NCBI GenBank assembly: GCA_963713825.1 | Contig: CAVQNG010000014.1 | Span: 54,366-118,365 of the forward strand | DNA: 64,000 nucleotides | Source of the DNA: an uncultured Acidobacteriota bacterium | GTDB taxonomy: Bacteria > Acidobacteriota > Thermoanaerobaculia > Multivoradales > JAHEKO01 | Direction: 5' to 3' | Part shown: positions 34,247 through 58,963 of the stretch, piece by piece | Numbering within the stretch: the stretch's first letter is position 1 | Layout: the number at the start of each line of letters is the position of its first letter | Translations under genes and position numbers: made by a program | Notes under the pieces: generated by a model | What the model was told of the DNA's origin: nothing | Databases searched by the model: none | Seen by the model: the letters and a program-made list of their open reading frames with translations, nothing else

Positions 34247-34253
34247 CCCCGAG

Positions 34254-34828: not shown

Positions 34829-34833
34829 GTCTA

Positions 34834-39628: not shown

Positions 39629-39653
39629 CGAGGCTCTCCTTCCAGGTACAGCA

Positions 39654-44210: not shown

Positions 44211-44287
44211 GGTCTCTCTCCCATCCTCGGCCGTGGGCATCCACGGTCGTCAGGCTCGAGAGAAATAGACCGAAGCCAGGCTAGGTG

Positions 44288-45016: not shown

Positions 45017-45335
45017 GCTCCCTCCCGTAGGAGCAACCGAAACAACAGTCTGGACGAGCTCGCACCGCGAGGCCGTCCGCAGAGTCAGCTTGGTTCTTCG
45101 GACCCGTCAAGAGTACAGGAAGTCCTTTCAAGAAGCACTACCTGTCGAGGTAGGAATAGGTACGTCCTTGCACCGACAAGGGGGTGACCGATGGTTCTAG
45201 TTGCTCGGAGCAGCGCCGGCGGTAGCGGCCTCGTGGTCTAGTGCCATGTTGGTGACGTAGGTTGTGGTTGACAATTCCGGATCATGGCACTGCCGCCGCT
45301 ACCGCCAGTGTACTCGTGAGTGAATGCCCGCCGCC

Positions 45336-46283
45336 TCAGTCGGAGGGTGATCGACAATCGCCGTCAAGAGGCTTCACGTCAGCGTCGTGTACAGAGAAAC
45401 AGCTTGGCGTGGTGGCCCCTGCCACAGCACCATCCAGCTGCGAATGGAGCAGGGACGCGACCCCGTAGTTGCAGATCCCTCCCCTGATCTCCGAGCTTCG
45501 GACTGTCATTGAGCCAAGGGTCCCAACTGTAATCGCACAGGCTTCTCCGAGAACTGAAGTCCGCTGCAGCCCAGTCAGGCCGTAGCCCAGGATGCCTTGT
45601 GATCCTGGGCCGTCGGCAACGATTATCGAGTTCCTGACTTCGAGAACTGACTCGGCTGAAAAAGCGACGATGCCGTAGGAGCCGCGTTCATCGCTTGTGG
45701 CCAGCAGCGTGACGCCATCTAGGACCGCCGTTGATCTGGCGATTCTGATACCAGAGCCCCAGCCTGAGGTCGGAGCGATCTCAATCGTCACATGCTTGAG
45801 GTATGTTGGTCCCGCGTACCAGATTTCGATACCCCGTGGTTCGTGGCCCGAGGCTCTGATCGTGACGTCAGAAACGGATGCGGATTGACCGGAGCCTACC
45901 CACAGGACCCTCTCGCAGGAAGCGGCACCTTCGAGGGTGAGTGATCGGAGCTCCGCGTGACTGGAACCGCTGATGGCGTAGTCTCTACCTGAGACGATTT
46001 TCGTCAATGCCTCGCCTGCGCCCTCAATGTCAACGAAAGGCTTCATGTCGATTTGTTCTTCATAGACCCCGGGTGCCACGTACACCAGATAGGGGTTGTC
46101 CTCCGTCGCATCTGTGATGCTGTCGAGTGCCGCTTGTATGGAGTGGAAGGCTGCACCGTTCTTTGCTACCTGGATGATGTTGTTCGTGCCGCCCCACTTG
46201 TTCCAGAGCTGTCCTTCGACCGTCGCGGCACGGAGGAGCAGCAGAGTAATGACGATCCCTGTCCTCAGTCGATGGTGAATCAT
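45336..46283 (-). CDS. Secreted right-handed beta-helix (pectin-lyase-fold) protein, pectinesterase-like N-terminus
   Basis: Signal peptide. IQVAKNGAAFHSIQAALDSITDATEDNPYLVYVAPGVYEE resembles the CE8/pectate-lyase N-terminus. Gly/Ser-rich beta-helix turns. Confidence 0.6.
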   Translation of the reverse strand: MIHHRLRTGIVITLLLLRAATVEGQLWNKWGGTNNIIQVAKNGAAFHSIQAALDSITDATEDNPYLVYVAPGVYEEQIDMKPFVDIEGAGEALTKIVSGRDYAISGSSHAELRSLTLEGAASCERVLWVGSGQSASVSDVTIRASGHEPRGIEIWYAGPTYLKHVTIEIAPTSGWGSGIRIARSTAVLDGVTLLATSDERGSYGIVAFSAESVLEVRNSIIVADGPGSQGILGYGLTGLQRTSVLGEACAITVGTLGSMTVRSSEIRGGICNYGVASLLHSQLDGAVAGATTPSCFSVHDADVKPLDGDCRSPSD

Positions 46284-46343
46284 GATCTGTCCTCCTTCGC
46301 TGTGATCGGTGCTGATTGGGCACGACGAGATAAGCTAGCATCC

Positions 46344-47303
46344 TCACTCGAGAATTGGCTGACAATGCTCGTCCAGAGCGCTCATTTTGGGGCCGCAGGT
46401 GGAGAAGCAGGAGACACTGTCCCCAGACACATGATCCGTGAGCTCCGAGTGGGAGATTGCAACGTCCTCCCCGAGCCCGGTGGCAATCGCTCCACTGATC
46501 TCTGAATGCTTTATCTTCAGCGCCCCATAAGACCCGACGGCCCAGCTGTCTCCAGCAACCGTCACATGCTTCAGAACGGCCGACGAGCCTCCGGCGAAGA
46601 CGCTGATGGACGCCGGTTCACCCTCGACGACAATGCTCGAATTCGTCATCTCGAAGTCGTCCCGAAGGTAAACACCGGTGTTGGTGCATTCGTCATTCGC
46701 AACCAGCATCGAGAGGTCGTCAAACAGCAGAACAGGCGTGCAGCCCAACATGCATCTGCCAAGAATGCCGTTGCCACGACACAGGCCTGACTCCGGAGTT
46801 GGGACTACCGCTACCGTCACGTCCTTCAGAGTCAGATCTCCGCAACAGGTACCAATGCCGGTGGCCCATCTGCCGGACGCCTTGATGGTGACGTGAGTGA
46901 TCTTCAGAGCAGCCCGGTTGTCGATCGCGGTGCAGCTGTCGATTCCGGTGCATTCAACAGTCAGCGATCGCAGCGCCGCGTCGGCGCCCTTGAGGGTTCT
47001 TGGCCCCGCGGAGACAATCCTCGTAAGGTGCTCGCCGGCGCCCTCGATGTCCACGAAGTGCTTCATGACGACCCGCCCTGCGTAGACTCCGGGTGCTACG
47101 TACACCAGATAGGGGTTGTCTTCACTTGCATCCGTGATGCTGTCCAGGGCGGCTTGAATGGAGCGAAAACCCCGGCCGCTCTTGGCGACGATGACGATTT
47201 GATCGGTCATGCCCAATCGGTTCACCAGCTGCCCATCGGCGTTCAGGGCGCCGAGCAGCAGCAAGACAGTGAAAGCTACGATGAGTGATCTGTTCTGGGT
47301 CAT
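46344..47303 (-). CDS. Secreted right-handed beta-helix protein (paralog of preceding gene)
   Basis: Start MTQNRSLIVAFTVLLLLGALNA (ATG, 15th codon of the track ORF). Shares IV.AK.G..F.SIQAALDSITDA.EDNPYLVYVAPGVY and HVDI.GAGE..T.IVS with the neighbor. Confidence 0.6.
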   Translation of the reverse strand: MTQNRSLIVAFTVLLLLGALNADGQLVNRLGMTDQIVIVAKSGRGFRSIQAALDSITDASEDNPYLVYVAPGVYAGRVVMKHFVDIEGAGEHLTRIVSAGPRTLKGADAALRSLTVECTGIDSCTAIDNRAALKITHVTIKASGRWATGIGTCCGDLTLKDVTVAVVPTPESGLCRGNGILGRCMLGCTPVLLFDDLSMLVANDECTNTGVYLRDDFEMTNSSIVVEGEPASISVFAGGSSAVLKHVTVAGDSWAVGSYGALKIKHSEISGAIATGLGEDVAISHSELTDHVSGDSVSCFSTCGPKMSALDEHCQPILE

Positions 47304-47651
47304 ATTGGCCCTCCTTCCTGGTCGTCCACTAGAAGAAGGCCGCAACCAACAGATTCGTTACACCCCGGTCAACGAAGTTGCCCCGCGGACCAACGCACTG
47401 GAAGCAAGTGCGCGCCACCACGAACAATCGCGCCGGCTCATCGGGTCAGACAGATCGAGAGGCGAGGACAGAAGTCCTCTTCGGGACTCTAGTTCGGGCG
47501 AAGTCGGCACCGAACCGGTCCTGTGGAGCTTCCTGGAAGGGTCGGCGGCGCAGCAGAACCGCCGGCTGGCTCAGGGCTTGGGGGATGGAGCCGTTTCCCG
47601 AAGTTTCCGTTCAGCGAGGGTGAGAAGGGAAGTTCAAGATCGGAATCGAGA

Positions 47652-48053
47652 TCACCGTTTCCGCAGGACGCTCTCGAGGCTCCAGATCCCAGACCCCTTG
47701 GTGGCGATGTACAGAAACAGGAACGCGTAGAGGGCAGCCAGCTCTCCCCGATTCTGGATGGGAAGGGGACCTTGGGGTTGGTGCACGAGGAAGTAGGCGA
47801 AAGCCATCAGACCGCTGGCGAGAAATGCAGCCCAGCTCGTCCCGATACCCAGCAGGATGGCAAGTCCACCAACCAGCTCGATGATGCCAGCCACCCCTCC
47901 TCGTGACACGAGCTCGACCGTTCCGCCGTCTCCGCCCGCCCCGCCGAATAGGCCGAGGAGCTTCTGCGCACCATGGCAAAGAAAGAGAAATCCAGCCACG
48001 ATCCGCAGCATCGCATAGGTCTGGTCCGAGTACTTTCCGAGGAATCTCTTCAT
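47652..48053 (-). CDS. DoxX-family membrane protein
   Basis: Start MKRFLGKYSDQTYAMLRIVAGFLFLCHGAQKLLG with a GGGAG RBS. Four TM helices. The longer track ORF is a read-through across repeat B. Confidence 0.75.
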   Translation of the reverse strand: MKRFLGKYSDQTYAMLRIVAGFLFLCHGAQKLLGLFGGAGGDGGTVELVSRGGVAGIIELVGGLAILLGIGTSWAAFLASGLMAFAYFLVHQPQGPLPIQNRGELAALYAFLFLYIATKGSGIWSLESVLRKR

Positions 48054-48171
48054 TTTCGACTCCCTGATCTCTTCTACTCCTACCTTGTTAAAGTCCGCCC
48101 CCAGTTTCCCATAAGTGACCGGGAGGTCCAACCAGTTGCTGCTCAACCGAATGGTGTGAAGAGGTCTCGAC

Positions 48172-48404
48172 TGGCGCGCCGGCAGGGACTCGCTCCTGGG
48201 TGTGGTGGGCGGGTGTGGACGGCGACCAAAGGGAGCCACACCCTGAACCCCCAGATTCGAAGGTGCGATGCTGAAGCCTGTGAAGCAGTGAGACCGGAGA
48301 TCGTCGGGTCCACGGCTACCACTGGACCATCTCGATCGCACTCCTCCCTGGTATATCTGCAAGGAATCCGTGGATCGCGAAGATGACGTAGGGGCCGAGC
48401 TCAA
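48172..48404. repeat. Repeat B: tRNA-Arg 3'-end homolog with a 53-bp insert, fused to the same ~190-bp sequence as repeat A
   Basis: tggcgcgccggcagggactcg is identical to the tRNA-Arg 3' end. After an insert it continues aacccccagattcgaag and then the A/B-shared sequence. Confidence 0.55.
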
Positions 48405-48461
48405 TCGGGCCTCGACAGCGAAATTGGCGCTGGCGATCGAAAATCTACGTTGACAGCCGTG

Positions 48462-51400
48462 TCAGGCGATCGCCTGCTGGTCGGGACTTTCGTCGGCCCA
48501 CTTTCGTTTCGATGCCCGGGATAGTGCCACCCAATTGGCGACCGTCGAGTAGGTCACGGGAATCAATATCAGGGTAACCAGAGTCGAAGCCAGCAGCCCG
48601 CCGATGACGACGCGGGCAAGCGAAGCCTGAATCTCGCCGCCCACACCGAGGCCCAGGGCGAGGGGTACCAGGCCGAGCACGGTGGTCGCAGTGGTGATAA
48701 GGATGGGTCGGAGCCGCAATCGACCCGCCTCGATGATCGCATCGGCAGCACCCATCTGGCGCTCGCGCCGGAGCAGGTTGATGGCATCGACCAACACGAT
48801 GGCGTTGTTGACCACGATGCCGATCAGCATGACCAGCCCCATGACACTCTGGATGTTGAGAGTGGTTCCGGTCAGCAACAAAGTGGGCACCACCCCGATG
48901 AGAGCCATTGGCACCGCGAGCATGACGATAAGTGGATCGAAGAAGCGCTCGAACTGGGCGGCCATCAGCATATAGACCAGCACCAGCGCCATGATGATGG
49001 CGATGGTGAAGTCGCGCCGAGCCGCGATCTGCTCTTCGTACTGCCCCCCATAGAGAATCGTGAAACCGCTCGGTAGCTCGAGACCTGCGAGGGCGGCTCG
49101 CACCCCTTCGACCGCATCGCCGAGGGCGACACCGCTCTCGAGATTGGCGGTCACGTAGGTGACCCGCTGCCCGTCGACACGATCGATCTCCACCGGTCCA
49201 CGGCCGCGCTGTCGCTCGACCAAGCTGGAGAGTGCCACCACGGCGCCCTGCGGTGTTCGCAGGGTGACGCCGTCGAGGTCCTGGGAGATCTGTCGGTCTT
49301 GTCGTCGCAACCGGACGGTGATCGGGAATTCGTAGCCTGCCTCACGGTAGCGGCCGGCTTCGATGCCGGCAACGTTGGCCAACAGGGTCTGGCCGACTTC
49401 GCGCACCGACAGTCCCAATTCGGAGATCCGCTCGCGATCGAGAATCAGCCGCTCCTCGGGTCGTCCTTCGCGGCGGCTGACACGAACGTCGGTCACGCCG
49501 GGCACCGCTTCCATGCGCCGTCGCATATCAGCGGCGATGCGGTCGGCTCGGTCCAGCTCCCAGCCACGAAGCTCGAGCTCCAGGGCATCGCTGCCGCCCC
49601 CCGAGCTGAAGACTCGATTGAGCATCCAGAGTCCTTGTTGTGCCTCGACCTCCAGCAGTCCCCCTGGCACCCGCCCATCGACCTCGCGACGCACCAGATC
49701 CGCCAGCTCGGAGCTCGCCAACTGACGCTGGTTCTGTGACTCCAGCTTGAGCTCCACGGCGGCATTGTCGCCTCGAATCTCGGTCGAAAAAAGGCGAACG
49801 TCGCCAGCCGGTACGACGGCTCGCACCCTGTCTTCGAGCTCATCGGTGTAGGCGCGGGCGACCGCGATATTGGTGCCACGCTCCATTTCGAGCTGAATGT
49901 CGATCTCGTCGGCTTCCGTTTGGGGTGCGAGCTCGACCGGGATCAGGGGCCAGGCGGCGATAGCCAGAGCCAGAGCCAAACCGGTCAAGGCAAAAACGCG
50001 TCCGCGATGCCTCATGGCGAATCGCAGCCGATCGGTGTACCAGCTCTCGAGCCTGCGCTGTAGGCGATGGTGTGGTGATCTTTCCAATTCCTCGCGTGGT
50101 GGCAGATGGAGAAACCGCGATGCAAGCATCGGCACCAGTGTCAACGCGACAAACAGCGAGCAGATGAGTGCAAAGACAACGACCAGGGCGAGAGCTTGAA
50201 AAAGCGCTCCGGTGGTCGTGCGGGTGAAAACGACAGGCACGAAGATCACGCAGGTGGTCAGCGTCGACGCGGTGATGGCGCCGGCCACGTCACGAGTTCC
50301 TATTCGGGCCGCTTCCGGCGGCGGCAGATCCTCTTCCTCGCGCTTGCGGACGATGCTCTCCAGAACCACGATGGCGCTGTCGACGATCAGTCCGACCCCG
50401 AGGGCGAGACCGCCGAAGGTCATCTGATTGAGGGTCTGACCGCCGAAGAAGAGAAGTGCGAAGGTAGCAATCACCGAAATCGGGATCGCCAGTGTGATGA
50501 TCAGTGTGCTCGAACGGTTGCGCAGGAAGAGGTACAAGACGCCGATGGCGAGAAAGGACCCCCAGATCGCTGATCTCTGGACGTTGCCAATCGACTGTCG
50601 GATGAAATCGCTCTGGTCGACGACGACGGTCAGCTGGATATCGTCACGCTCCTGGTTGATCAGCTCCGCTTCGTGCCGAACGGCCCGTGCAACCTCCACG
50701 GTGTTGCCACCACTCTGCTTCTGGATTCCGAGACTGATCGAGGGAACACCGTTCATCTCGACGAGGTAGCGCACGTCCTCGTAGGCGTCGCGCACTTCGC
50801 CGATATCCCGCACGCGCACCGGTCGACCGCCAGGAGTGGCGACCACGGTGAGGGCGATCTCCTCGAGGGACCGATACTCCCCGAGGCTGCGGATATAGAG
50901 GTCGTTGAAACCGCTTTTCACCGTGCCGGTTGGGAGCGTCACATTCTCCCGCGCCAAGGCTCGCTCGACATCGAGTGCGGTCAGACCCGTCGCCTGCAGG
51001 CGGTCGCGGTCGAGCTCGACCCGGATCTCGCGATAGACGCCTCCACGAATGTCGATGGCGCCCACACCGGGGATTTGTTCGAACCGGCGGGCCAACTCAT
51101 CCTCGAGCAGTCGCGTCACCTCTTCGAGGTCACGCGTCGAGGTTACAGCCAGGCTCACCACCTCGACGCGGTCGAGGTCGAGCTTGAAAACGCGCGGCGC
51201 AGAGGCCTCCACAGGCAGGTCATCCCGCAATCCGTCGAGGGCTGCTCGCAGGTCGTTGGCCGCTTCGTCGATACTCGTACCGCGAGCAAACTCGAGCCTG
51301 ACCCGGCTGCTGCCCTCTTCAGACTGAGAAGTCACCCTCTCCAAGTTGGGTAGCCCGGCGACGGCGTTCTCGATCCGGTCGGTAATGATCTGCTCGACTT

Positions 51401-51572
51401 CCTCTGGACCGACATTCGGATAGCCGACCCGCACGGTCAGTTGGGTGAATTCCACTTTCGGCAGCAGGTCGATCGGCAGACTGCGGAACGAGACGATCCC
51501 GACGACGATCAGCATGAGAAAGACCATCGTCGTGGCGACAGGCCGGTGGATGGAGACCTCGGTCAAGCGCAT
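48462..51572 (-). CDS. Efflux RND permease (HAE1/AcrB family)
   Basis: MRLTEVSIHRPVATTMVFLMLIVVGIVSFRSLPIDLLPKVEFTQLTV matches the AcrB N-terminus. Full 12-TM architecture. Confidence 0.9.
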   Translation of the reverse strand: MRLTEVSIHRPVATTMVFLMLIVVGIVSFRSLPIDLLPKVEFTQLTVRVGYPNVGPEEVEQIITDRIENAVAGLPNLERVTSQSEEGSSRVRLEFARGTSIDEAANDLRAALDGLRDDLPVEASAPRVFKLDLDRVEVVSLAVTSTRDLEEVTRLLEDELARRFEQIPGVGAIDIRGGVYREIRVELDRDRLQATGLTALDVERALARENVTLPTGTVKSGFNDLYIRSLGEYRSLEEIALTVVATPGGRPVRVRDIGEVRDAYEDVRYLVEMNGVPSISLGIQKQSGGNTVEVARAVRHEAELINQERDDIQLTVVVDQSDFIRQSIGNVQRSAIWGSFLAIGVLYLFLRNRSSTLIITLAIPISVIATFALLFFGGQTLNQMTFGGLALGVGLIVDSAIVVLESIVRKREEEDLPPPEAARIGTRDVAGAITASTLTTCVIFVPVVFTRTTTGALFQALALVVVFALICSLFVALTLVPMLASRFLHLPPREELERSPHHRLQRRLESWYTDRLRFAMRHRGRVFALTGLALALAIAAWPLIPVELAPQTEADEIDIQLEMERGTNIAVARAYTDELEDRVRAVVPAGDVRLFSTEIRGDNAAVELKLESQNQRQLASSELADLVRREVDGRVPGGLLEVEAQQGLWMLNRVFSSGGGSDALELELRGWELDRADRIAADMRRRMEAVPGVTDVRVSRREGRPEERLILDRERISELGLSVREVGQTLLANVAGIEAGRYREAGYEFPITVRLRRQDRQISQDLDGVTLRTPQGAVVALSSLVERQRGRGPVEIDRVDGQRVTYVTANLESGVALGDAVEGVRAALAGLELPSGFTILYGGQYEEQIAARRDFTIAIIMALVLVYMLMAAQFERFFDPLIVMLAVPMALIGVVPTLLLTGTTLNIQSVMGLVMLIGIVVNNAIVLVDAINLLRRERQMGAADAIIEAGRLRLRPILITTATTVLGLVPLALGLGVGGEIQASLARVVIGGLLASTLVTLILIPVTYSTVANWVALSRASKRKWADESPDQQAIA

Positions 51573-52996
51573 TTCATGGCTCCACCGGTTTCTGTCTCTT
51601 GGCAGCGGCCTCCTCGAGGACTTGTTCCACCACCTGCTTCGCTCGCGGGGATCTCGGCCCCGAGAGCAGCGGCTATCGTGCGCTGTTTGTCGAGAAAGCT
51701 CTCGAGCAGGTCCTCGTCCTGCAGGTCCTGAAGCTCCATAACGCGATCCCAGCTTGTCGGGCGGATGCGAGCAACTGCTGTGCCGACGCCCTTCGGACCT
51801 TCATCGGAGTCTGGACCGGCGGCCTTCGCCGCCAACTCCGACTGCTCGTTCAAGAGGTGCTGCCCAACGGTCACGACCCAGGCATCCGCCGCGATGCCGG
51901 TAACTCCCGCGGCACCGCGGCCCTCAGCCAGGATGTCGATCGGCCGAAACACCACCCGATAGACGGTCTCCGCGCTCCAGGTATCGGCTTCGGCAGGCTC
52001 TTCGAGGCCTGCCGCTTCCTGGACCTCGAAGACTCCACGCTGGCCAGAAGCCGGATTCTCCCAGACCGCGCCCACCGGCACGAGGATCGCCTGCTGGCTC
52101 TGACCGACGAGAATGCGCACGGTGGCGAACATCCCTGGCCTCAGTGCGCCGGCGCGATTGTCGACATCGATCTCACCCAGGGTCGTAAAGCTGTCCGCGG
52201 CAAGAAAGGGGGAGATGCGCGACAGAAAAGCCCGGATCGGCTCAGCTGCCGCCGAGCGGGTTGCGATCTCCACCGACTGGCCCACTTCGACACGGGAGAG
52301 CATGGCTTCGGTCAGATCGACTTCGACAATCAGCTCGTTCAGATCGCCCATCACAAAGAGGATATCTGCGGAGTCGACCAACATTCCCACTTCGGCGCGA
52401 CGCTCGCCGAGTTGGCCGGAAACCGGAGCGCGTACAACGGTCTTGGCTCTGGAGGAACGCCTCTCTACGGCTGTAGCCTGCGCCTGCTCGACGCGTGCCG
52501 TGGCTTCGTCGGTGCTGGCATGAAGGGTGTCGAGCTGAGCTTCGAGCGTCTCGAGCTCCTGCTCACTGATCAGTTCCTCAGCCGCCAGGGTTCGGGTCCT
52601 GGCCACCCGTGCCTCGAGCTCCACGACCCGGGCTCTGGCCGCCGCCGCACTTGCTTCCGCCAGACGGACATTGGCTTCGGCCTGTCGCAGCCGTTCGCGG
52701 GCCTCGACTTCGTCCAGACGAACCAGAGGCTGGCCACGTTCGACCACCTCGCCGCTGCGGACCAGGACTTCCACGACTCGGCCCTCCATCTCTGGACGGA
52801 TCGCCACCTGATTGCGGGCTCGGACCACGCCGGGCACCGTCACCTCGATTGGCAGTGCACCAACGCGAGACTGAACCGCCTCTACCAGGGGTGCCAGTGT
52901 CGGCTTGCTCTCCTCGCGGTCGGTGCTCCCGCAGGCAAGGCCAAACACCAGGCACAGGCATACTGCGGCGCGGAGTATGGGTTGAAGAGTGTTCAT
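51563..52996 (-). CDS. Efflux RND periplasmic adaptor subunit (lipoprotein)
   Basis: Signal and lipobox LVFGLACGS. Long coiled-coil hairpin. Overlaps the permease start by 10 nt. Confidence 0.8.
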   Translation of the reverse strand: MNTLQPILRAAVCLCLVFGLACGSTDREESKPTLAPLVEAVQSRVGALPIEVTVPGVVRARNQVAIRPEMEGRVVEVLVRSGEVVERGQPLVRLDEVEARERLRQAEANVRLAEASAAAARARVVELEARVARTRTLAAEELISEQELETLEAQLDTLHASTDEATARVEQAQATAVERRSSRAKTVVRAPVSGQLGERRAEVGMLVDSADILFVMGDLNELIVEVDLTEAMLSRVEVGQSVEIATRSAAAEPIRAFLSRISPFLAADSFTTLGEIDVDNRAGALRPGMFATVRILVGQSQQAILVPVGAVWENPASGQRGVFEVQEAAGLEEPAEADTWSAETVYRVVFRPIDILAEGRGAAGVTGIAADAWVVTVGQHLLNEQSELAAKAAGPDSDEGPKGVGTAVARIRPTSWDRVMELQDLQDEDLLESFLDKQRTIAAALGAEIPASEAGGGTSPRGGRCQETETGGAMKCA

Positions 52997-53102
52997 CGCC
53001 CTGATCTTTCCCCTTCGACACCCCGCTCAGCCAGAATCGAACGGGGCGGTAGACTATCAGCTGAGCGGTCGGACACGCTTCAGCTTCTCTTCTCGGGCCT
53101 CG

Positions 53103-53378
53103 CTAGGCGGGTGTGGCGACCGGATTTGAATTCACCGGCATGAGCGGTTTCTGGTGCGGGTGGGGTGAAATGATGAGCAGGGGGTCGGTACTCGAGATCA
53201 TGGTGGCGCCATGCTTGGCAAAGACCTCACACAGGATAGGCCCCATGAACAGGTGCGCAGTGGCCAGGAAGACCGAGAGCTGCTGGCGTCGAGCCAGGTT
53301 CTCGAGGACGAGGTGACGTCGAGTTCGGAAGGCTGAAGATGTGGACCGGAGGAACACTCCAAGAAGGCGAATCATCAC
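53103..53378 (-). pseudogene. Fragment of a DDE (rve/integrase-core type) transposase N-terminus
   Basis: RRHLVLENLARRQQLSV matches the RRDFVLENLALRHQLAV N-terminus of the fragment at 56194. The rest of the frame is non-protein-like. Confidence 0.4.
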
Positions 53379-53462
53379 GCGGAGAGGATATCCGCTACCG
53401 GTGTGAAGGCTGCTGTCTACTGGACGGATGAGAAAACGACAGGGACAACCGAGGGTCAGCCA

Positions 53463-56042
53463 CTAGCCGCTACTGGTCTCGGCGAGAAAACGCTCGTGGC
53501 ATGCCTTGCCGGCGGCGCGGACGTCGGCCCACTCCTCGGCAAACTCGGGATCATTGCGCAGGCTGGCAATCAGAGGATCGGTATCGATGTGCGGGTACGA
53601 GCAGTAACCCCCATCGATCGCCCGCTCCAACAACTCTAGAGCGACCTCGTGCTCGCCGGCGAAAGCAAAAATGGCCGCATTCCAGTGGACCTGCTCCACG
53701 TCATTGAGGAGGTCCGTGAAACCCATCTCTTGCTGCAGTACCTCCGGCGCCATGGTCCGATCTTCCAAAACGGGCTCGAGACTCGCTGCCAGGATGGTAT
53801 AGCTCGTATTCCGTGACAGCTCCAGCGCCTCCTCGAGGCGCCCTTGCCGTATCCGAACGACGGCCAGATTGCCAAAGTAGAAGTCGTTGCCAGGACTCAG
53901 ATCGAGGAACTGCTCGGCCCGATCGTAGCGACTCGCCAGGTAGTTGGTGATGCCGCACGATCGAAAGCCTGGGTTGTTCGGGTCGAGACCGAGGGCCGTA
54001 TCGCAATCCCGCACCGATTGCTCGATCGCACCGGCATAGCGCAAAAGGTAGGCGCGGAGAAAATAGACCCGGCCAACTCTTGGGCGCTGTTCGATCAACT
54101 GACTCGCGGCCCTGTAGGCCTTGGCCAGCTCACCACGCTCGATATCGATCATGATGACCCGCACTTGTGGCTCGATCAGCTCGGGATCGAGCTCCAAGGC
54201 CCGGTGGGCAGCTTCGATGGCCCTGTCACTGTCCTCGAATGTACCGCCGCCGTAAAGCACGTAGAAATGCAGGCGATTGGCCAGCTCTCCCCAGGCTGGC
54301 GCGTAGTTCGGGTCGAGCTCGACGGCCCGCTCCACCAGGGCCAAAGCCTCGCTATTCGGAGCGGGATCCGAGCTCATCGAGAGGCTACGTAGATAGAAAT
54401 TGTACGCTTCCTCGTTGGTCGGCAACGTACCGGTCGACGCCAGCGTGGCGCCGGGATCGAGAATCGGCATCAATCCCTGCTCCACCCTCTCGGCCACCGC
54501 TTGGCGGAGCGACAAGAGCTCCTGCCATCCAACCACGACACTGTCTCGCCAGACCACGCTATTGCCATCGACATCGATAGCCTCGAGCGTCAGTCTCAGC
54601 TGATCCCCCTCTTTGAGATACTGACCCGTCACCACGTTGGCAACACCAAGCTCTCGCCCGAGGGTCAAGGGATCTGTTCCCGCGGTATCGAGCCGCGAGG
54701 TGGTCGAGAAGGGGCGAATCGACAGACCCGAGCCGCGACTCAAGGCCGTCGTGATTTCATCAGGCACCGCCAGTCGCAGATAATCCAGCTCGGCGTTCGC
54801 GCCGAGATTGGCAAACGGCAGCACGGCAACAGAGCGCGGATCCTGCTCTTCAGCTGCGACTGCAACCGCATCGGTGGTCTCGGTTGGAGCCGATGTTTGC
54901 CGGCCCTGCCACCAGAAGATTCCCACAACGAGGATCCCCGCTGCTGCGACGATTGCCCCGAGCAGACCCCACGGACGCCTCGCTTCTGGCTGCGGTCCAC
55001 TAACTTGCGCCGGGACCTCGGCGACGGACGAAGCCGGATCAGTCACAACCGTCGCGCCGCCGCTGACCGCAGACGCTGGTGCACTCACAGGTGGCCCTGG
55101 AGCGCTCGAAACGGGCCCGCTCGCCGCAGCTCCCTGGAGCACGGGTGTCCCGGTGGTCGTCGAGAGCTGCCCCGAGTCGACCTCGCCGCGGAGCCCTTCA
55201 AGCTCATTGCGCACGTCTTTGGCCGACTGGTAGCGCCGCTCCGGGTCTTTCTCCAAACAGTGCTGAATGATCCGCGCCAGGTGGCGCGGCAGATCGGCCC
55301 GCATCTCGACCACCGAGGACGGCGTGTCCTTCAGGATGCTCGAAGCTAGCTCGATCCCCGAGTCGCCTTGAAAGGGTCGCCGACCGGTGACCATCTCATA
55401 GAGCAAGATGCCGAACGAGAAGATATCGGTGCGCGAGTCCACCTCTTTACCGCTCAGCTGCTCGGGACTCATGTAGGGCGCGGTGCCCATGACAGTGCCT
55501 TCGCCGGTCAGCGCTGCCGATTGCGTCAGCGCTTCGGTCGCCACATCCAAAAATGTAGTCGGCGAGGTTTCCGTCGCCAGCTTAGCGAGCCCGAAATCCA
55601 AAACTTTGATATTGCCGTCGGCGGTGACCATGACGTTGGCTGGCTTCAAATCCCTATGGGTGATGCCCTTCTCGTGCGCTGCCGCCAAGGCATCGGCCAG
55701 CGGAATGGCATACGCAAAGACCTCGGCCAGCGGCATTCCACCCGGCGGCAGAACCCGATCGAGGCTCCTGCCCTCGACCTTTTCCATCACCAGCAAACGC
55801 CGTCCCTCGGCCTCTTCCACATTGAACAGCGTGACGATATTGGGATGATTGAGCGATGCCACAGCCCGCGCCTCGCGCCGAAACCTCTCCAAGCGCTCCG
55901 GGCTCTCCTCGGCCATCGGCGGCAAGATCTTCAGTGCAACCTCCCGGCCGAGCTCCGTATCCTCGGCCAGATAGACCTCACCCATCCCACCCTCACCGAG
56001 CTTCGCAACGATTTTGTACCGCGAGAGAGTCTTTCCGATCAT
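53463..56042 (-). CDS. Ser/Thr protein kinase with TM helix and periplasmic TPR-repeat domain
   Basis: Start MIGKTLSRYKIVAKLGEGGMGEVYLA. Kinase motifs HRDLKPANVMV and DFGLA. Pro/Ser/Ala-rich linker and one TM helix. C-terminal TPR-like repeats. Confidence 0.85.
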   Translation of the reverse strand: MIGKTLSRYKIVAKLGEGGMGEVYLAEDTELGREVALKILPPMAEESPERLERFRREARAVASLNHPNIVTLFNVEEAEGRRLLVMEKVEGRSLDRVLPPGGMPLAEVFAYAIPLADALAAAHEKGITHRDLKPANVMVTADGNIKVLDFGLAKLATETSPTTFLDVATEALTQSAALTGEGTVMGTAPYMSPEQLSGKEVDSRTDIFSFGILLYEMVTGRRPFQGDSGIELASSILKDTPSSVVEMRADLPRHLARIIQHCLEKDPERRYQSAKDVRNELEGLRGEVDSGQLSTTTGTPVLQGAAASGPVSSAPGPPVSAPASAVSGGATVVTDPASSVAEVPAQVSGPQPEARRPWGLLGAIVAAAGILVVGIFWWQGRQTSAPTETTDAVAVAAEEQDPRSVAVLPFANLGANAELDYLRLAVPDEITTALSRGSGLSIRPFSTTSRLDTAGTDPLTLGRELGVANVVTGQYLKEGDQLRLTLEAIDVDGNSVVWRDSVVVGWQELLSLRQAVAERVEQGLMPILDPGATLASTGTLPTNEEAYNFYLRSLSMSSDPAPNSEALALVERAVELDPNYAPAWGELANRLHFYVLYGGGTFEDSDRAIEAAHRALELDPELIEPQVRVIMIDIERGELAKAYRAASQLIEQRPRVGRVYFLRAYLLRYAGAIEQSVRDCDTALGLDPNNPGFRSCGITNYLASRYDRAEQFLDLSPGNDFYFGNLAVVRIRQGRLEEALELSRNTSYTILAASLEPVLEDRTMAPEVLQQEMGFTDLLNDVEQVHWNAAIFAFAGEHEVALELLERAIDGGYCSYPHIDTDPLIASLRNDPEFAEEWADVRAAGKACHERFLAETSSG

Positions 56043-56193
56043 GTCTGCAGACCGATTGTAGAACTTCCAGCCCCCGCATGGGAGGGCGCAAGGCCCTGTA
56101 GGGCGCCAGAACCCCATCCGCCCAACGAAATCGTTGACACCCTGCAGTGATCGCCGGCTGACTGAGCTGATGCTCTAGATCTTCTTCACGATC

Positions 56194-56550
56194 GTGAGGA
56201 CGCTCCGATCTGCCCTCAAGGTTCGGCGAGATTTCGTCCTCGAGAACCTGGCACTTCGACACCAGCTCGCTGTCCTGACGCGCTCGGGTAACCGTCCCCG
56301 CTTTCGCCCAGCTGATCGCTTTCTCTGCACCTGGCTCCGGTCTCTCTGGGACTGTTGGAGACAATCGCTTGTCCTCGTTCTCCCGGCAACCGTCGTTCGC
56401 TGGCATCGCGAGGGTTTCCGGCGATATTGGGCTCGGAAGTCTCGTCGCCAGCCGGGTAGACCGCGAGTCGATCCAGAGCTCTTGAGACTCATCCGCCTGA
56501 TGGCCACTACAAACCCACTTTGGGGAGCGCCTGATCGGTTCTGTCCGGCG
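56194..56550 (+). pseudogene. Truncated DDE transposase N-terminal region (HTH part only)
   Basis: VLENLALRHQLAVLTR...RFLCTWLRSLWDCWRQSLVLVLPATVVRWHREGFRRYWARKSRR..GRPRVDPELLRLIRLMATTNPLWGAP is the conserved N-terminus of rve-type transposases. The catalytic DDE domain is missing and the frame degenerates after WGAP. Confidence 0.5.
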
Positions 56551-57037
56551 CGAGTGCCTCGATCACGTAATCGTCCTTGGAGAGGCACATTCGCGCCACG
56601 TCCTCGGCACCCACTTCGCCTACTACCAGCGCTCGAGAATCCACCTCTTCCTGAACAAAGATGCTCCCAACCCGACAGACATCCAGCCACCGGCGATGGG
56701 TGAGGTCATCGAGCTACCCGAAGTCGGTGGGCTCCATCATCGCTACGAACGCCGGGCGGCCTGACCACTGGACCGCCTCTCCGAGATCAGCGCCCTCTAG
56801 CCCGCCCCAAAGCTGGACCGCTGCGCCCGAGCCCCGAACGCGGCCCGCAGAAGTCACCGCTCCGACCCTGGCACGGGCCAGTCGGCGTGCGCCCATCGAA
56901 GGATCGGAGCCCAATCCCGCGCATAATCGGCCAGACGGGGTTTACGATACGGACAAGGAGATTGCACATACCAATGGACCGTGGATGGACCATGTGAGCT
57001 GGAGGTGTCTAGTGTCGCCACTTGACCTTACGGCAAA

Positions 57038-57105
57038 TGTCCTGTTTTGAGGGAGTTGCTTGGCGCGCCGGCAGGGACTCGAACCCCGAACCCCCAGATC
57101 CGAAG
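57038..57105. repeat. Direct repeat of the tRNA-Arg 3' half plus ~20 nt of trailer (att-like)
   Basis: 45 nt (tggcgcgccggcagggactcgaaccccgaacccccagatccgaag) are identical to 58887-58931. The preceding gttttgagggagttgc resembles the tRNA trailer gtttgagggagttgag. Confidence 0.7.
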
Positions 57106-57171
57106 CAGGGGGGTTCAGGGACTTCTCAGAAGGTTCTCTTGAGCCCCTGGGACCGTTTCGGCAAAGCTGAG

Positions 57172-57693
57172 CTAGGGCTTCCCGCCGTCAGAAACTCGGA
57201 AACCCAGAGGATTCAGTAGTAGTTCAGGTGCGACGACCTCGGGTTGCTTCATGTCGAGCGGTCTACAGGGCGAGTGGGCCAGGAACAGCGACAACTCGAG
57301 CAGAGTCATTTCGGGCTCGGTGGCCAGAATGTCCCTGGTCATGTGGGTGAAATCGGTCATCGATCCAAGCACCACGCGGCTGTTTGTCCGTCCGTAGTAC
57401 ATTGGATCCATCAGGGACAACTCGCGATCGATAGCCTCTTGCGGAACCTTCAGCGCGAGGAGCACGTCTGTGAGAAGTCTCAGGAATCGCTTTTCAAAAT
57501 GGTCGAGATCCCGAGCTGTCGTGACGATCGGGAGCAGGGACCGCTCGCTGACCAGGATTAGAAAGTGCCCCTGCGGGGTGTAGACGATGTTTGCGAACCA
57601 ATCTCCCAGCCGATTCTCTGGAGGGGGCGGCTCGCCTGGATCTCGGATTCCCAGCCGTTTGAGGAGCTTCGCCGTGCATCGAAGGGTCGTCAT
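57172..57693 (-). CDS. Hypothetical protein (islet cargo)
   Basis: 173-aa ORF with balanced composition and no recognizable motifs. Confidence 0.4.
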   Translation of the reverse strand: MTTLRCTAKLLKRLGIRDPGEPPPPENRLGDWFANIVYTPQGHFLILVSERSLLPIVTTARDLDHFEKRFLRLLTDVLLALKVPQEAIDRELSLMDPMYYGRTNSRVVLGSMTDFTHMTRDILATEPEMTLLELSLFLAHSPCRPLDMKQPEVVAPELLLNPLGFRVSDGGKP

Positions 57694-57758
57694 GGTTCTT
57701 CCTCGTCCAATGCAGATGGGGGCAGAAAGCCGTGCCTGATGAAGAAGCCTCCTGGGAA

Positions 57759-58097
57759 TCAGTCAGCGAGAGTCCGCTCGAGAGCATCGATCATCTCGCG
57801 CAGATCAGTCGACACGACATTCCAGACAATGTCATGGTCCACCGCGGCGTAGCCGTGTACCAGACGATTCCTCATGCCGATGATTTCCTTCCAGGGAATC
57901 TCGGGCGAGTTCGCCCTGGTCGAAGGTGAGACCTTGCTCGCAGCCTCGCCGATGACCTCGACAAAGCGCTCCAGGGCTGCAGCCAGGATCAGGTCAGAGT
58001 CGAGATCTGATCGATCCTTCTCTGCGACCGCTTCAACTGCCCGGCGGGCGTGATCGAGCATGTCGCGAAGGAGAACGTTGTCTTCAGGCGGCCTCAT
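57759..58097 (-). CDS. hepT: HepT-family toxin (HEPN domain, DUF86)
   Basis: C-terminal HEPN R-x4-H motif in MRNRLVHGY. Overlaps the MNT gene by 14 nt. Confidence 0.75.
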   Translation of the reverse strand: MRPPEDNVLLRDMLDHARRAVEAVAEKDRSDLDSDLILAAALERFVEVIGEAASKVSPSTRANSPEIPWKEIIGMRNRLVHGYAAVDHDIVWNVVSTDLREMIDALERTLAD

Positions 58098-58386
58098 AGA
58101 TGGGTATCGCTTCGGCAGTCACGCGATCGCGGAAGTGTGGGCTGAGGAACCCGGGTGTGTTCAGGTCGACCTCTCGCCCGACCAGGTTTGACAGTTCATC
58201 CTGTATAGCGATGAATTGCAGGCCTACGTTGTGCCCCGGGATGAACTCGACGAGCAGGTCAATGTCGCTGTCTGGATGCAGTTCGCGCCGCGCAGCCGAT
58301 CCGAAGACAGCCAAGCGGCGAATGCCATGTTGCCGACACAGCTCAGCGAGCTTTCGTTGGTCGATCTCGAGTACTGCCCGGTTCAT
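58084..58386 (-). CDS. mntA: MNT-family nucleotidyltransferase antitoxin
   Basis: LAVFGSAARRELHPDSDIDLLVEF is the GS-x9-DxD polymerase-beta-type NTase motif. Confidence 0.75.
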   Translation of the reverse strand: MNRAVLEIDQRKLAELCRQHGIRRLAVFGSAARRELHPDSDIDLLVEFIPGHNVGLQFIAIQDELSNLVGREVDLNTPGFLSPHFRDRVTAEAIPIYEAA

Positions 58387-58783
58387 CGCCTCGTGATGAT
58401 ACCGCAGTGAGGCTGAGTGGTAAGGGGCGGGTGAGGTCCTCTAGTGGGTGGGACGTGAGGTGGAGAAGGGCGTAGGTACAGCCCCCGTCAGTCTGCCGAA
58501 CGCGAGCGACAGGGTAGAACTGGAGAACTACTCTCAGGTGTGAGTCAGGAAGCTGCGTCTGAAGTACCGACACCAAGCGCCGGGCTTCGAGCCTCAGCGA
58601 GTATCGGCCGTTCACTCTCTCGAACTGATTTGCCTTCGTCTGGCTGTGAGGAAGGGTAGCGAGAACGAACATTCTTGGCATGAAACCAAGAGCGCCGGCC
58701 TCGTGAACATCTCGAATTTCGATGGGAAGAACTCGAGCGGAGGGCCGGTCTTCCAACAGCAGGTGCTGGCGCATCAAGCCCAC
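58343..58783 (-). CDS. Hypothetical protein (islet cargo, doubtful)
   Basis: 146-aa ORF overlapping the MNT gene by 44 nt. No motifs recognized. Confidence 0.3.
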   Translation of the reverse strand: MGLMRQHLLLEDRPSARVLPIEIRDVHEAGALGFMPRMFVLATLPHSQTKANQFERVNGRYSLRLEARRLVSVLQTQLPDSHLRVVLQFYPVARVRQTDGGCTYALLHLTSHPLEDLTRPLPLSLTAVSSRGDEPGSTRDRPTKAR

Positions 58784-58886
58784 CGCAATCCCTGCCTGCG
58801 CACCAATAGCGCACCAAATCGCCGATTTGGGGGTCTGAGGCCGACTCCAAGAATCGATGTAAATGTCTTAGTTTGAGGGAGTTGAG

Positions 58887-58963
58887 TGGCGCGCCGGCAG
58901 GGACTCGAACCCCGAACCCCCAGATCCGAAGTCTGGTGCTCTATCCAATTGAGCTACCGGCGC
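58887..58963 (-). tRNA. tRNA-Arg (anticodon TCG)
   Basis: The reverse complement GCGCCGGTAGCTCAATTGGATAGAGCACCAGACTTCGGATCTGGGGGTTCGGGGTTCGAGTCCCTGCCGGCGCGCCA folds as a 77-nt cloverleaf. 7-bp acceptor stem, D-arm GCTC/GAGC, anticodon stem CCAGA/TCTGG with loop CTTCGGA, T-arm CGGGG/CCCTG with TTCGAGT loop, and an encoded CCA. Confidence 0.85.

What the first reader, a model, noticed from the sequence alone, without database searches (positions are those of the whole stretch)
57038..58963. tRNA-Arg(TCG) with its 3' half duplicated 1.8 kb away, enclosing a HepT/MNT toxin-antitoxin islet
A 45-nt block identical to the tRNA 3' half, plus ~20 nt of similar trailer, recurs at 57038-57105. Identity ends inside the anticodon loop, as expected for anticodon-loop integrase crossover sites. 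The intervening 1.8 kb carries HepT/MNT and two hypotheticals but no integrase. That fits a decayed integrative element or a minimal toxin-antitoxin islet stabilised at the att site.
Basis: seen in the sequence. Interest (0 to 1): 0.6.

Follow-up and report, generated by a model that had tools for sequence, protein, structure and literature searches.

The report
Decayed plasmid-like islet at tRNA-Arg
The 1.8 kb between a tRNA-Arg gene and a perfect copy of its 3' half is the gutted remnant of an integrated plasmid-like element, with a dead replication gene, an intact toxin-antitoxin pair and a candidate defence gene; it is the newest of three such units stacked at this tRNA, which is ordinary in kind, although the element family seems never to carry its own integrase.

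Summary
tRNA-Arg(TCG) lies at 58887-58963 (-). Its last 45 nt recur exactly at 57061-57105, followed by 26 nt of trailer with 21 matches. Identity starts at the first base of the anticodon loop.

The enclosed 1.8 kb holds MNT and HepT (type VII toxin-antitoxin), a DUF6933 protein, and a pseudogene of a RepA_C plasmid replication initiator whose central domain is deleted. It holds no integrase, and the 64 kb window holds none either.

Two older, degenerate copies of the same tRNA half lie at 48172-48262 and 31618-31660. They have the same orientation and the same boundary. The islet is therefore the tRNA-proximal unit of a roughly 27 kb, three-unit accreted island.

Close relatives differ at this locus. 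They show an intact repA next to the tRNA, an extra TerB gene, other att variants, and a near-empty site. The toxin-antitoxin/DUF6933 module is about 90% identical, against about 98% for the flanks.

Intact relatives of this repA occur in tandem, att-bounded units at tRNA-Arg, tRNA-Leu and comM in Thermoanaerobaculia contigs. None of about 12 units examined has a recombinase.

Verdict: a CIME-like decayed integrative element. The kind is ordinary, but the family is undescribed.

The parts
58887..58963 (-). Intact tRNA-Arg(TCG) gene with encoded CCA. Its 3' 45 nt (58887-58931) form the attL core.
   Evidence: ARAGORN; Rfam tRNA 68.3 bits. The sequence is identical to the tRNA of relatives L001 and L003.
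58861..58886 (-). Proximal trailer after CCA, holding the conserved motif CAACTCCCTCAAA. It is the left end of unit A.
   Evidence: 21/26 identical to 57035-57060. The same motif follows the tRNA in L001 and L003 and leads into repA there.
58798..58817 (-). Two direct copies of TTGGTGCGC spaced 11 nt apart, just upstream of the repA remnant. They look like an iteron or operator.
   Evidence: One search finds 4 copies in the window against 0.68 expected, and two of them lie here. The motif is conserved upstream of repA in L001 and L003. Function is inferred by analogy with iteron replicons (PMC7433901).
58343..58783 (-). Pseudogene of a RepA_C (PF04796) plasmid replication initiator. Residues 1-73 and about 257-277 are retained; the RepA_C domain is deleted.
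   Evidence: BLASTP against the L003 RepA: residues 1-73 are 64% identical (E 6e-27), and residues 81-101 match 257-277. The L003 protein hits RepA_C at 5e-24 over residues 74-226. The window ORF has no Pfam hit. P0014 is 94% identical over the first 70 residues.
58396..58423 (-). Promoter-like site TTACCA-16-TATCAT, 10 nt upstream of the MNT start.
   Evidence: Consensus scan found 1 site against 0.5 expected, which is weak. The TATCAT is also present upstream of MNT in L064.
58084..58386 (-). MNT / MntA-type minimal nucleotidyltransferase, 100 aa, the antitoxin. It carries the motif GSx10DxD.
   Evidence: Pfam NTP_transf_2 1e-12 and Polbeta 4e-11. NCBIfam MntA_antitoxin 44.5 bits, below the 60-bit cut-off. 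PDB 1WOT at 2.5e-13. PADLOC PDC-S09 at 2.5e-30. The motif was read from the translation.
57759..58097 (-). HepT (HEPN RNase) toxin, 112 aa, with the motif RNRLVHGY (Rx4HxY). It overlaps MNT by 14 nt.
   Evidence: Pfam HepT-like 2.4e-25, covering profile positions 1-119 of 120. NCBIfam HepT_toxin 44.4 bits, below the 60-bit cut-off. The motif was read from the translation.
57172..57693 (-). DUF6933 protein, 173 aa, matching the PADLOC defence candidate PDC-S63. The predicted fold resembles the catalytic core of DDE integrases and transposases.
57106..57171 (.). Right-end spacer of unit A, between the DUF6933 stop and the attR core. Its last 39 nt are unique to this genome.
   Evidence: Homology to L062-L065 ends at 57145. 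The sequence was read.
57061..57105 (-). attR core: a displaced, perfect copy of tRNA positions 32-76.
   Evidence: 45/45 identical.
57035..57060 (-). Distal trailer, with the same motif as the left ends of repA elements. It is read as the left end of the older unit B.
   Evidence: 21/26 identical to the proximal trailer. 59/60 identical to the L001 tRNA end plus trailer. Identical in L063.
56194..56764 (+). DDE transposase pseudogene. An N-terminal HTH part is joined out of frame to the C-terminal 80 aa; the catalytic core is missing. It sits where the repA of unit B would be.
   Evidence: Weak Pfam hits: HTH_32 at 0.014 and rve_3 at 0.01. The frames were read. A related N-terminal fragment lies at 53103-53378 (-).
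48263..57034 (.). Unit B, about 8.8 kb: the IS remnant, a Ser/Thr kinase with TPR repeats, HlyD, AcrB and a right-end flank.
   Evidence: Bounded by att copies 2 and 3. Gene content.
48172..48262 (-). att copy 3: the tRNA 3' half interrupted in the T-loop by an insertion of about 46 nt, called att(ins) here.
   Evidence: The same variant occurs in L064 with perfect flanks, at the end of the L003 contig and translated within P0023.
31661..48171 (.). Unit C, about 16.5 kb: DUF222-HNH, MazEF, FG-GAP, an outer-membrane barrel protein, a STAND kinase with WD40 repeats, an ECF sigma factor, two pectinesterase-like genes and DoxX.
   Evidence: Bounded by att copies 3 and 4. Pfam. The right-end flanks 31630-31738 and 31818-31877 match 48230-48341 and 48343-48402 at 79-82%.
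31618..31660 (-). att copy 4: the oldest and most degenerate copy of the tRNA 3' half, marking the far edge of the island.
   Evidence: 90% identity over 41 nt to both other cores, with the same boundary CCGAAG|. Housekeeping genes resume to its left.

Best explanation
Segment 57035-58963 is the tRNA-proximal, youngest unit of a composite genomic island of about 27 kb. The island was built by repeated site-specific integration at tRNA-Arg(TCG).

The unit descends from a small integrative plasmid-like element. Its circular form carried, in order: a copy of the tRNA 3' half (attP), a short trailer, iteron-like repeats, repA, then cargo (mntA-hepT and DUF6933).

Recombination with the chromosomal tRNA took place in the anticodon loop. 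It rebuilt the tRNA from element DNA and pushed the resident 3' half 1.8 kb away.

The element has since lost the core of repA. It carries no recombinase, so it is now a cis-mobilizable (CIME-like) remnant. It could still be cut out across its two identical 45-nt cores if a cognate tyrosine integrase is supplied in trans.

The toxin-antitoxin pair is intact, and so is DUF6933. The pair would penalise loss of the unit, and both are candidate phage-defence cargo.

Shown: the repeats, the gene identities, the repA decay, the extra att copies, the absence of a recombinase, and the polymorphism among relatives.

Inferred: the tyrosine-integrase mechanism, the order of insertions, and the stabilising and defence roles.
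For: **att geometry.**
- The 45/45 core starts at tRNA position 32, and there is a 21/26 trailer.
- Two further copies have the same orientation and the same boundary.
- Anticodon-centred attP sites with a regenerated tDNA and a displaced 3' fragment are the standard signature of tyrosine-integrase islands. Islander counts 2083 of 3919 islands as this type (PMC4383910).

**Plasmid ancestry.**
- The ORF at 58343-58783 is a RepA_C gene missing its domain.
- L001 and L003 have the full gene right after the same tRNA.
- The family hits 1103 plasmid records annotated as RepA.
- SGI1 Rep belongs to the same Pfam family and drives replication of the excised island (PMC7433901).
- The repA-then-MNT order is also seen in L061.

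**Mobility and polymorphism.**
- L063 matches the flanks at 97.5-98.3% but the MNT-HepT-DUF6933 trio at only 90-92%. It has an extra TerB gene and a different att variant.
- In L064 the trio is bounded by att(ins) with no repA.
- In L003 the unit is repA-TerB.
- L004 has only tRNA scars.
- Many relatives' contigs break at this tRNA.

**Tandem arrays elsewhere.**
- Tandem, att-bounded repA units occur elsewhere: three in comM in L047, two in L056, and at tRNA-Leu in L061 with the boundary at the anticodon loop again.

**Intact toxin-antitoxin pair.** Both catalytic motifs are present and Pfam coverage is full length.

**Composition.** Unit A has 58.7% GC, against 61.1-61.5% in the backbone.
Against: - No integrase was found in the unit, in the window, or within 10 kb of about 12 related repA units. 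The recombinase is therefore hypothetical.
- No genome with a clean empty attB next to the same flanks was recovered.
- Relatives L062-L065 carry the same trio immediately before the same unit B. Part of the unit may therefore predate the split of these lineages. In that case it was remodelled by deletion or exchange rather than freshly inserted.
- Similarity runs past the tRNA end (26 nt here, at least 140 nt in L061), which homologous recombination would also produce.
- The insertion-bearing att variant is unexplained.
Confidence: 0.72

Rival explanations
1. Integrase-free Campbell integration. A RepA plasmid that had captured a piece of the chromosome (tRNA 3' half plus trailer) integrates by RecA-dependent homologous recombination. 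The direct repeats are then simply the shared homologous segment.
For: No recombinase lies near any of about 12 related units. The repeats extend beyond the tRNA, by 71 nt here and by at least 200 nt in L061.
Against: The inner boundary falls at the anticodon loop in four copies here and again at tRNA-Leu in L061. This is the classic tyrosine-integrase subsite (PMC4383910). The shared core in the comM arrays is only about 30 nt, and 45-71 nt is short for efficient RecA crossover.
Confidence: 0.13
2. Not a mobile insertion. An ancient local duplication left a paralogous tRNA fragment, and the 1.8 kb between the copies is ordinary ancestral chromosome.
For: Relatives L062-L065 have the same MNT-HepT-DUF6933 trio in front of the same downstream flank. 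The repA N-terminal region next to the tRNA is shared with L001 and L003.
Against: A plasmid replication gene sits at the junction. The trio is 90% identical against 98% for the flanks, with different borders and different neighbours. Content at the tRNA differs in L003, L004 and L007. Four ordered att copies share one boundary.
Confidence: 0.05
3. DUF6933 is the recombinase. A minimal protein with a DDE-integrase-like fold, encoded next to attR, moves the cassette.
Against: DDE enzymes make short target duplications, not 45-nt conservative att repeats. The position after beta-4 reads T-N where integrases have T-D-N. DUF6933 is absent from most repA units. It also occurs without att or repA, as in L066, and fused to PRiA4_ORF3, GNAT or DUF3024. 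PADLOC lists it as a single-gene defence candidate.
Confidence: 0.04
4. Assembly artefact. The second copy of the tRNA half arises from mis-joining strain variants of a hypervariable locus.
For: Related assemblies frequently break at this tRNA, so the locus is hard to assemble.
Against: The repeat is only 71 nt, shorter than a read. The junction from the distal att copy into unit B is reproduced in independent assemblies: L063 and L062 are 97.5% identical across 57081-56681.
Confidence: 0.03

Closest known systems
CIME (cis-mobilizable element) and tandem accretion of ICE/IME-derived islands (ICESt1 family; review PMC5704250)
   Same: The unit retains attL and attR but has lost its recombination and maintenance genes. 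It lies in tandem with older decayed units at the 3' end of one target gene (one search gives the definition).
   Different: The ancestor here is not a recognisable ICE or IME. No relaxase, conjugation gene or integrase is seen in any relative. The only backbone gene is a plasmid-type repA.
Salmonella genomic island 1 (SGI1), an integrative mobilizable element with a RepA_C Rep, an iteron oriV and the sgiAT toxin-antitoxin pair (PMC7433901)
   Same: Both are chromosomally integrated elements whose replication initiator belongs to Pfam RepA_C (PF04796). Both have short direct repeats near rep and carry a toxin-antitoxin module.
   Different: SGI1 encodes its own int and xis next to rep and integrates at trmE. 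These units have no int or xis and target tRNA-Arg, tRNA-Leu or comM. Protein identity to proteobacterial plasmid RepA is only about 38-41%.
tDNA genomic islands of the Islander type (tyrosine-integrase islands with an anticodon-centred attP; PMC4383910)
   Same: There is a regenerated tRNA plus a displaced 3' fragment in direct orientation. The identity block runs from the anticodon loop to the 3' end, and the units form a tandem array.
   Different: Islander requires an integrase gene in each island, and none is present here.
Tycheposon arrays in Prochlorococcus islands (bioRxiv 10.1101/2020.12.28.424599)
   Same: Successive integrations at one tRNA push older elements inward and leave partial tRNAs between units. 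The elements combine a replication module with cargo.
   Different: Tycheposons are defined by their own tyrosine recombinase and by primase/helicase-type replication genes. Neither is found here.
[quoted passage not shown]
   Same: A small MNT gene lies upstream of, and overlaps, a HEPN gene. The motifs GSx10DxD and Rx4HxY are present, including the tyrosine that MntA adenylylates in the studied system.
   Different: Both proteins fall below the NCBIfam equivalog cut-offs (44 against 60 bits) and are shorter than the studied pair. Activity is untested.

Membership tests
tDNA-integrated genomic island (tyrosine-integrase type) | An intact target tRNA plus a displaced fragment of the same tRNA in direct orientation, bounding the island. 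| tested here: met
   45/45 nt, same strand, 1826 nt apart.
tDNA-integrated genomic island (tyrosine-integrase type) | The identity block ends at a canonical crossover subsite (anticodon loop, T-loop or T/acceptor junction). | tested here: met
   The boundary falls at tRNA position 31|32 in all four copies. The subsites are as defined in PMC4383910.
tDNA-integrated genomic island (tyrosine-integrase type) | A tyrosine integrase gene inside the island. | tested here: not met
   Pfam scans of all sizeable ORFs found no Phage_integrase, Recombinase or Resolvase hit. This holds for the unit and for the whole window.
tDNA-integrated genomic island (tyrosine-integrase type) | Presence/absence polymorphism with an empty attB in related genomes. 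| tested here: inconclusive
   Content differs in L003, L004, L007 and L062-L065. L004 is near-empty. No empty site with the same two flanks was recovered.
CIME (cis-mobilizable element) | Both att sites retained, with integration and transfer genes lost. | tested here: met
   The definition comes from PMC5704250.
CIME (cis-mobilizable element) | Derived by decay from an autonomous ICE or IME. | tested here: inconclusive
   Decay is shown by the repA internal deletion. However, no relative has an integrase or transfer genes, so the ancestor may never have been autonomous.
CIME (cis-mobilizable element) | Excision or co-transfer when a cognate element supplies the integrase. | not testable with these tools
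   This needs read-level junction data or an experiment.
Type VII toxin-antitoxin HepT/MntA | A HEPN toxin with an Rx4HxY RNase motif. | tested here: met
   The motif RNRLVHGY was read in the translation. Pfam HepT-like scores 2.4e-25.
Type VII toxin-antitoxin HepT/MntA | An MNT antitoxin with a GSx10DxD nucleotidyltransferase motif, encoded upstream and overlapping the toxin gene. | tested here: met
   The motif GSAARRELHPDSDID was read in the translation. The genes overlap by 14 nt, 58084-58097.
Type VII toxin-antitoxin HepT/MntA | A score above the NCBIfam equivalog cut-offs. | tested here: not met
   Scores are 44.4 and 44.5 bits against cut-offs of 60. The pair belongs to the broad family but is not an equivalog of the studied pair.
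Type VII toxin-antitoxin HepT/MntA | Toxicity of HepT, and its neutralisation by AMPylation. | not testable with these tools
   The mechanism is known from PMC7641770 only.
RepA_C (PF04796) iteron replicon | A RepA_C domain in the initiator. | tested here: not met
   The window copy lacks the domain. Full-length relatives have it, for example L003 at 5e-24. The window gene is therefore a pseudogene of this family.
RepA_C (PF04796) iteron replicon | Iterons or an oriV next to rep. | tested here: inconclusive
   Only two 9-nt direct repeats lie upstream of repA. An analogous box, TGTTACCAAAATTGTTAC, occurs in another subfamily. No replication test was possible.
DDE integrase/transposase (rve-like), considered for DUF6933 | An RNase H-like catalytic-core fold. 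| tested here: met
DDE integrase/transposase (rve-like), considered for DUF6933 | A complete D,D,E triad at the canonical positions, and a sequence match to rve profiles. | tested here: not met
   Only D31 maps to a canonical position. The motif after beta-4 is GRTNSR, with no acidic residue. Pfam gives DUF6933 only. DUF6933 is therefore not filed as an integrase.
Tycheposon | A hallmark tyrosine recombinase together with a replication module. | tested here: not met
   No recombinase was found (calls above). The resemblance lies only in the array architecture.

The most novel reading that the evidence does not exclude
The repA-led units may not be decayed leftovers. They may form an undescribed class of integrase-less 'satellite' integrative plasmids in Thermoanaerobaculia. 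Each would carry only an attP (a tRNA half or a comM segment) placed directly upstream of an iteron-repA module, plus cargo that is often a toxin-antitoxin or defence gene. They would rely on a recombinase supplied in trans by the host or a helper, and would pile up in tandem like replicative cassettes. The window's islet would then be a dead member of that class.
Probability: 0.3. Interest if true: 0.65.

Novelty: new member of a known kind. Interest (0 to 1): 0.4.

Why it matters
The islet is a textbook example of how tRNA genes collect and retain foreign DNA: att scars, a dead replication gene, and a surviving toxin-antitoxin/defence module.

It matters more as an entry point. The same repA family is abundant, with 694 database hits. 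It is multi-copy per genome, always sits next to an att site, is arranged in tandem, and was never seen with a recombinase.

If that holds, Acidobacteriota carry a cassette-like system of replicative islands driven by a recombinase in trans. That would help explain hypervariable, hard-to-assemble loci in these uncultured soil and sediment bacteria.

DUF6933 also gains a first structural clue, an integrase-core-like fold. The family has about 4200 cluster representatives, and PADLOC lists it as a defence candidate.

Tried and rejected
**Searches that led nowhere**
- An exact-sequence look-up of the window's own DUF6933 protein found nothing. The look-up of P0029 failed as well.
- The single metagenome scan with one RepA returned only 4 short loci, so no full-length tRNA-Arg element with both ends was recovered there.
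- A viral-contig scan with the 27-nt T-arm/acceptor core found nothing. A RepA profile scan of viral contigs gave only 3 distant loci at 35-41% identity, which I did not follow.
- PHROGs gave nothing useful.
- Rfam found nothing but the tRNA.
- The afdb50 fold library was unavailable.

**Empty attB**
- L002 (90% ACAD identity) has no tRNA at all upstream of ACAD, so it shows a rearrangement rather than an empty site.
- L004 is near-empty but distant.

**Explanations considered and rejected**
- A paralogous tRNA fragment with ancestral filling.
- An assembly artefact.
- DUF6933 as the recombinase.
- A divergent integrase hidden among hypothetical neighbours of repA. Ten such proteins were rescanned at E up to 0.1 with no recombinase signal.
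Full report
**1. The observation**

ARAGORN finds a single tRNA in the window, tRNA-Arg(TCG) at 58887-58963 on the minus strand. Rfam scores it at 68.3 bits.

The repeat finder reports a 71-nt direct repeat, 57035-57105 against 58861-58931, with 66 of 71 identical. Split by part, the 45 nt that form tRNA positions 32-76 (anticodon loop through CCA) match 45/45. The 26 nt after CCA match 21/26.

A self-BLAST gives E = 5e-23. A 23-mer from the core occurs twice, against 0.01 expected.

One correction applies. The break lies at the 5' stem/loop junction, so the whole loop CTTCGGA is inside the identical block.

**2. What lies between the repeats**

All four ORFs are on the minus strand, co-oriented with the tRNA.

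- **58084-58386** is a minimal nucleotidyltransferase. It hits NTP_transf_2 at 1e-12 and carries the motif GSx10DxD.
- **57759-58097** is a HepT-like HEPN RNase. It scores 2.4e-25 with full-length profile coverage and carries the motif RNRLVHGY.

The two genes overlap by 14 nt, with the antitoxin first. Both fall below the NCBIfam equivalog cut-offs, at 44 against 60 bits. They are therefore members of the broad type VII family, not equivalogs of the studied Shewanella pair (PMC7641770). A weak promoter-like site sits 10 nt upstream of MNT.

- **57172-57693** is a DUF6933 protein (4e-32).
- **58343-58783** has no Pfam hit. It proved to be the key to the unit.

**3. The ORF next to the tRNA is a dead plasmid replication gene**

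The acyl-CoA dehydrogenase on the other side of the tRNA places the window in Thermoanaerobaculia (Acidobacteriota). It also retrieved relatives with the same tRNA-ACAD arrangement.

In L001 and L003 (ACAD 88% identical), the tRNA is followed directly by an intact gene of about 310 aa. That gene hits Pfam RepA_C (PF04796) at 5e-24 over residues 74-226.

The window ORF matches residues 1-73 of that protein at 64% identity, and then residues 257-277. P0014 is 94% identical to its first 70 residues. The RepA_C domain itself has been deleted.

Two copies of TTGGTGCGC, 11 nt apart, lie just upstream of the remnant. They are conserved in L001 and L003.

**4. The islet is one unit of a larger array**

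BLAST of the relatives against the window, and of RepA proteins against the window, exposed two more copies of the tRNA 3' half. Both are in the same orientation and end at the same base.

- **Copy 3 (48172-48262)** is interrupted in the T-loop by about 46 nt.
- **Copy 4 (31618-31660)** is 90% identical, with small deletions.

On their element side, copies 3 and 4 share about 250 nt of flank at 79-82% identity. The region 31.6-58.9 kb is therefore three att-bounded units:

- **Unit A**, 1.8 kb, is the reported islet.
- **Unit B**, 8.8 kb, holds an IS remnant, a Ser/Thr kinase with TPR repeats, HlyD and AcrB.
- **Unit C**, 16.5 kb, holds DUF222-HNH, MazEF, a STAND kinase with WD40 repeats, an ECF sigma factor and others.

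Housekeeping genes resume left of about 31.3 kb.

The distal trailer after copy 2 carries the same motif as the left ends of repA elements, and is 59/60 identical to L001. I read it as the left end of unit B. The repA of unit B has been replaced by a transposase pseudogene at 56194-56764.

The perfect core of unit A, against the decayed cores of B and C, fits newest-nearest-the-tRNA accretion. This is the pattern described for CIME/IME tandems (PMC5704250) and for tycheposon arrays.

**5. No recombinase**

I scanned every sizeable ORF of the window in Pfam except two AcrB-like ones. None hits a tyrosine or serine recombinase.

**6. Relatives**

Contigs L062-L065 come from very close relatives. 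They match the window at 97.5-98.3% across unit B's start and the kinase gene. The MNT-HepT-DUF6933 trio, however, is only 90-92% identical.

These contigs also differ in structure:
- The trio is followed by an extra TerB gene.
- It is bounded by the insertion-bearing att variant.
- In L062 and L064 it is preceded by another unit's right end, not by repA and the tRNA.

In L003 the unit is repA-TerB followed by that same att variant. L004 has the tRNA followed only by short tRNA scars. L007 has a DUF6933 remnant and a different MNT/HepT pair. Many relatives' contigs end at this tRNA.

The history is nevertheless not a single clean insertion, because the trio sits before the same unit B in two lineages. 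Module exchange, or differential deletion from a repA-MNT-HepT-DUF6933-TerB ancestor, both fit. The order repA-then-MNT recurs in L061.

**7. The wider family**

The RepA search returned 694 proteins, often several per contig. Three contexts illustrate the pattern:

- **L047.** Three repA-led units lie in tandem inside a split comM gene. They share a core of about 30 nt and have conserved unit ends.
- **L056, L057, L067 and L068.** These show further tandem or comM-adjacent units.
- **L061.** A repA-MNT unit is bounded by a tRNA-Leu(TAA) gene and a tRNA-Leu fragment. Identity starts 2 nt before the anticodon loop and runs at least 140 nt past CCA, through an iteron-like box.

In none of about 12 units is a recombinase called within 10 kb. 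Ten unannotated neighbours rescanned at E up to 0.1 show none either. Cargo is often toxin-antitoxin or defence-like: MazE, ParE/RHH, Fic, PIN and MNT.

**8. Mechanism**

The best-supported reading is as follows. A small circular repA element carrying the tRNA half as attP recombined with the tRNA in the anticodon loop. That is the 'A' subsite, used by about half of mapped tDNA islands, and only tyrosine recombinases are known to target tDNAs (PMC4383910). The element then decayed.

The recombinase must have acted in trans, because none is present. The unit is now a CIME-like remnant with two intact 45-nt cores. That the toxin-antitoxin pair stabilises the unit, or defends against phage, is inferred from other islands (PMC8978831; sgiAT, cited in PMC5704250) and from PADLOC hits (PDC-S09 and PDC-S63).

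The main rival is RecA-dependent Campbell integration through the captured homology. It would explain the missing integrase and the long repeats, but not the recurrent anticodon-loop boundary.

**9. DUF6933**

Four acidic residues are invariant: D31, E50, E91 and D114. The canonical second aspartate is missing, however; the sequence reads T-N where integrases have T-D-N.

The family is large, with 4238 representatives at E up to 1e-3. Most members stand alone. Some are fused to PRiA4_ORF3, GNAT or DUF3024.

I do not file it as an integrase, and I consider a role in moving the cassette unlikely.

**10. Verdict**

The object is an ordinary kind of thing, a decayed integrative element kept with its toxin-antitoxin cargo at a tRNA hotspot. 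It belongs to an element family that appears undescribed and consistently lacks its own integrase.

Noticed in passing
window 48172-48262; also L064:500-595, L063:2100-2176, L003:1-80: A recurrent att variant in which the tRNA-Arg 3' half is split in the T-loop by an insertion of about 46 nt (GTGGCTCCC...CCCAGGGG). In L064 both flanking tRNA pieces are perfect. The origin is unknown; possibilities are a scar of a second, T-loop-type crossover or a small insertion.
   Followed up: partly
window 57172-57693: The DUF6933 protein is confidently predicted to have a DDE-integrase-like catalytic-core fold. It has four invariant acidic residues but lacks the canonical second Asp. It matches the PADLOC single-gene defence candidate PDC-S63. 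Family members are sometimes fused to PRiA4_ORF3, GNAT or DUF3024.
   Followed up: partly
window 53103-53378 (-) and 56194-56764 (+): Two fragments of the same kind of DDE transposase, in inverted orientation, bracket the Ser/Thr kinase-TPR gene (53463-56117). In the close relative L063, the segment 56120-56680 is replaced by 97 nt that match 53351-53447 in inverted orientation. This suggests IS-mediated rearrangement.
   Followed up: partly
L047:4272-20912 (ERZ25039508 contig_10539): A comM (Mg-chelatase-like) gene is split by three tandem repA-led units of 4-6 kb. Each unit is bounded by a shared core of about 30 nt and has a conserved stretch of about 105 nt at its end. No recombinase lies within 10 kb.
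   Followed up: partly
L004:300-430: Downstream of tRNA-Arg in a more distant relative lie a 22-nt fragment running from the T-loop to CCA, and an oppositely oriented 3' end of another tRNA. These are scars that suggest a second class of integrase (T-loop crossover) also uses this tRNA.
   Followed up: no
L002:1-1870: The relative with the most similar ACAD (90%) has no tRNA-Arg upstream of it. It has 2-oxoacid:ferredoxin oxidoreductase beta and a CBS-domain gene instead, and neither is present in the window. The synteny break falls about 100 nt upstream of ACAD.
   Followed up: no
window 39654-44240 (-): A 1528-aa protein combines a Ser/Thr kinase, a nSTAND1 NTPase and WD40 repeats. It lies next to an ECF sigma factor inside unit C and has a conflict-system-like architecture.
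   Followed up: no
window 32850-34828 and 29659-30099; 13671-14461: More toxin-antitoxin and nuclease genes lie near the island edge and in the backbone. These are DUF222-HNH endonuclease, MazF with an upstream small ORF, a PIN protein at 29659-30099, and a PIN/FitA-like RHH pair at 13671-14461.
   Followed up: no
window 46011-46243 vs 47031-47263; 35550-36511: Two adjacent pectinesterase-like genes are paralogues, 73.5% identical over 234 nt. The FG-GAP protein gene contains internal repeats of about 145-nt period.
   Followed up: no
L061:1-340 and 8290-8514; L057:9915-16262: In another repA subfamily, the box TGTTACCAAAATTGTTAC(C) occurs on both sides of the tRNA-Leu-derived att and again directly upstream of repA. 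The tRNA half there is oriented opposite to repA, unlike in the window's subfamily.
   Followed up: partly
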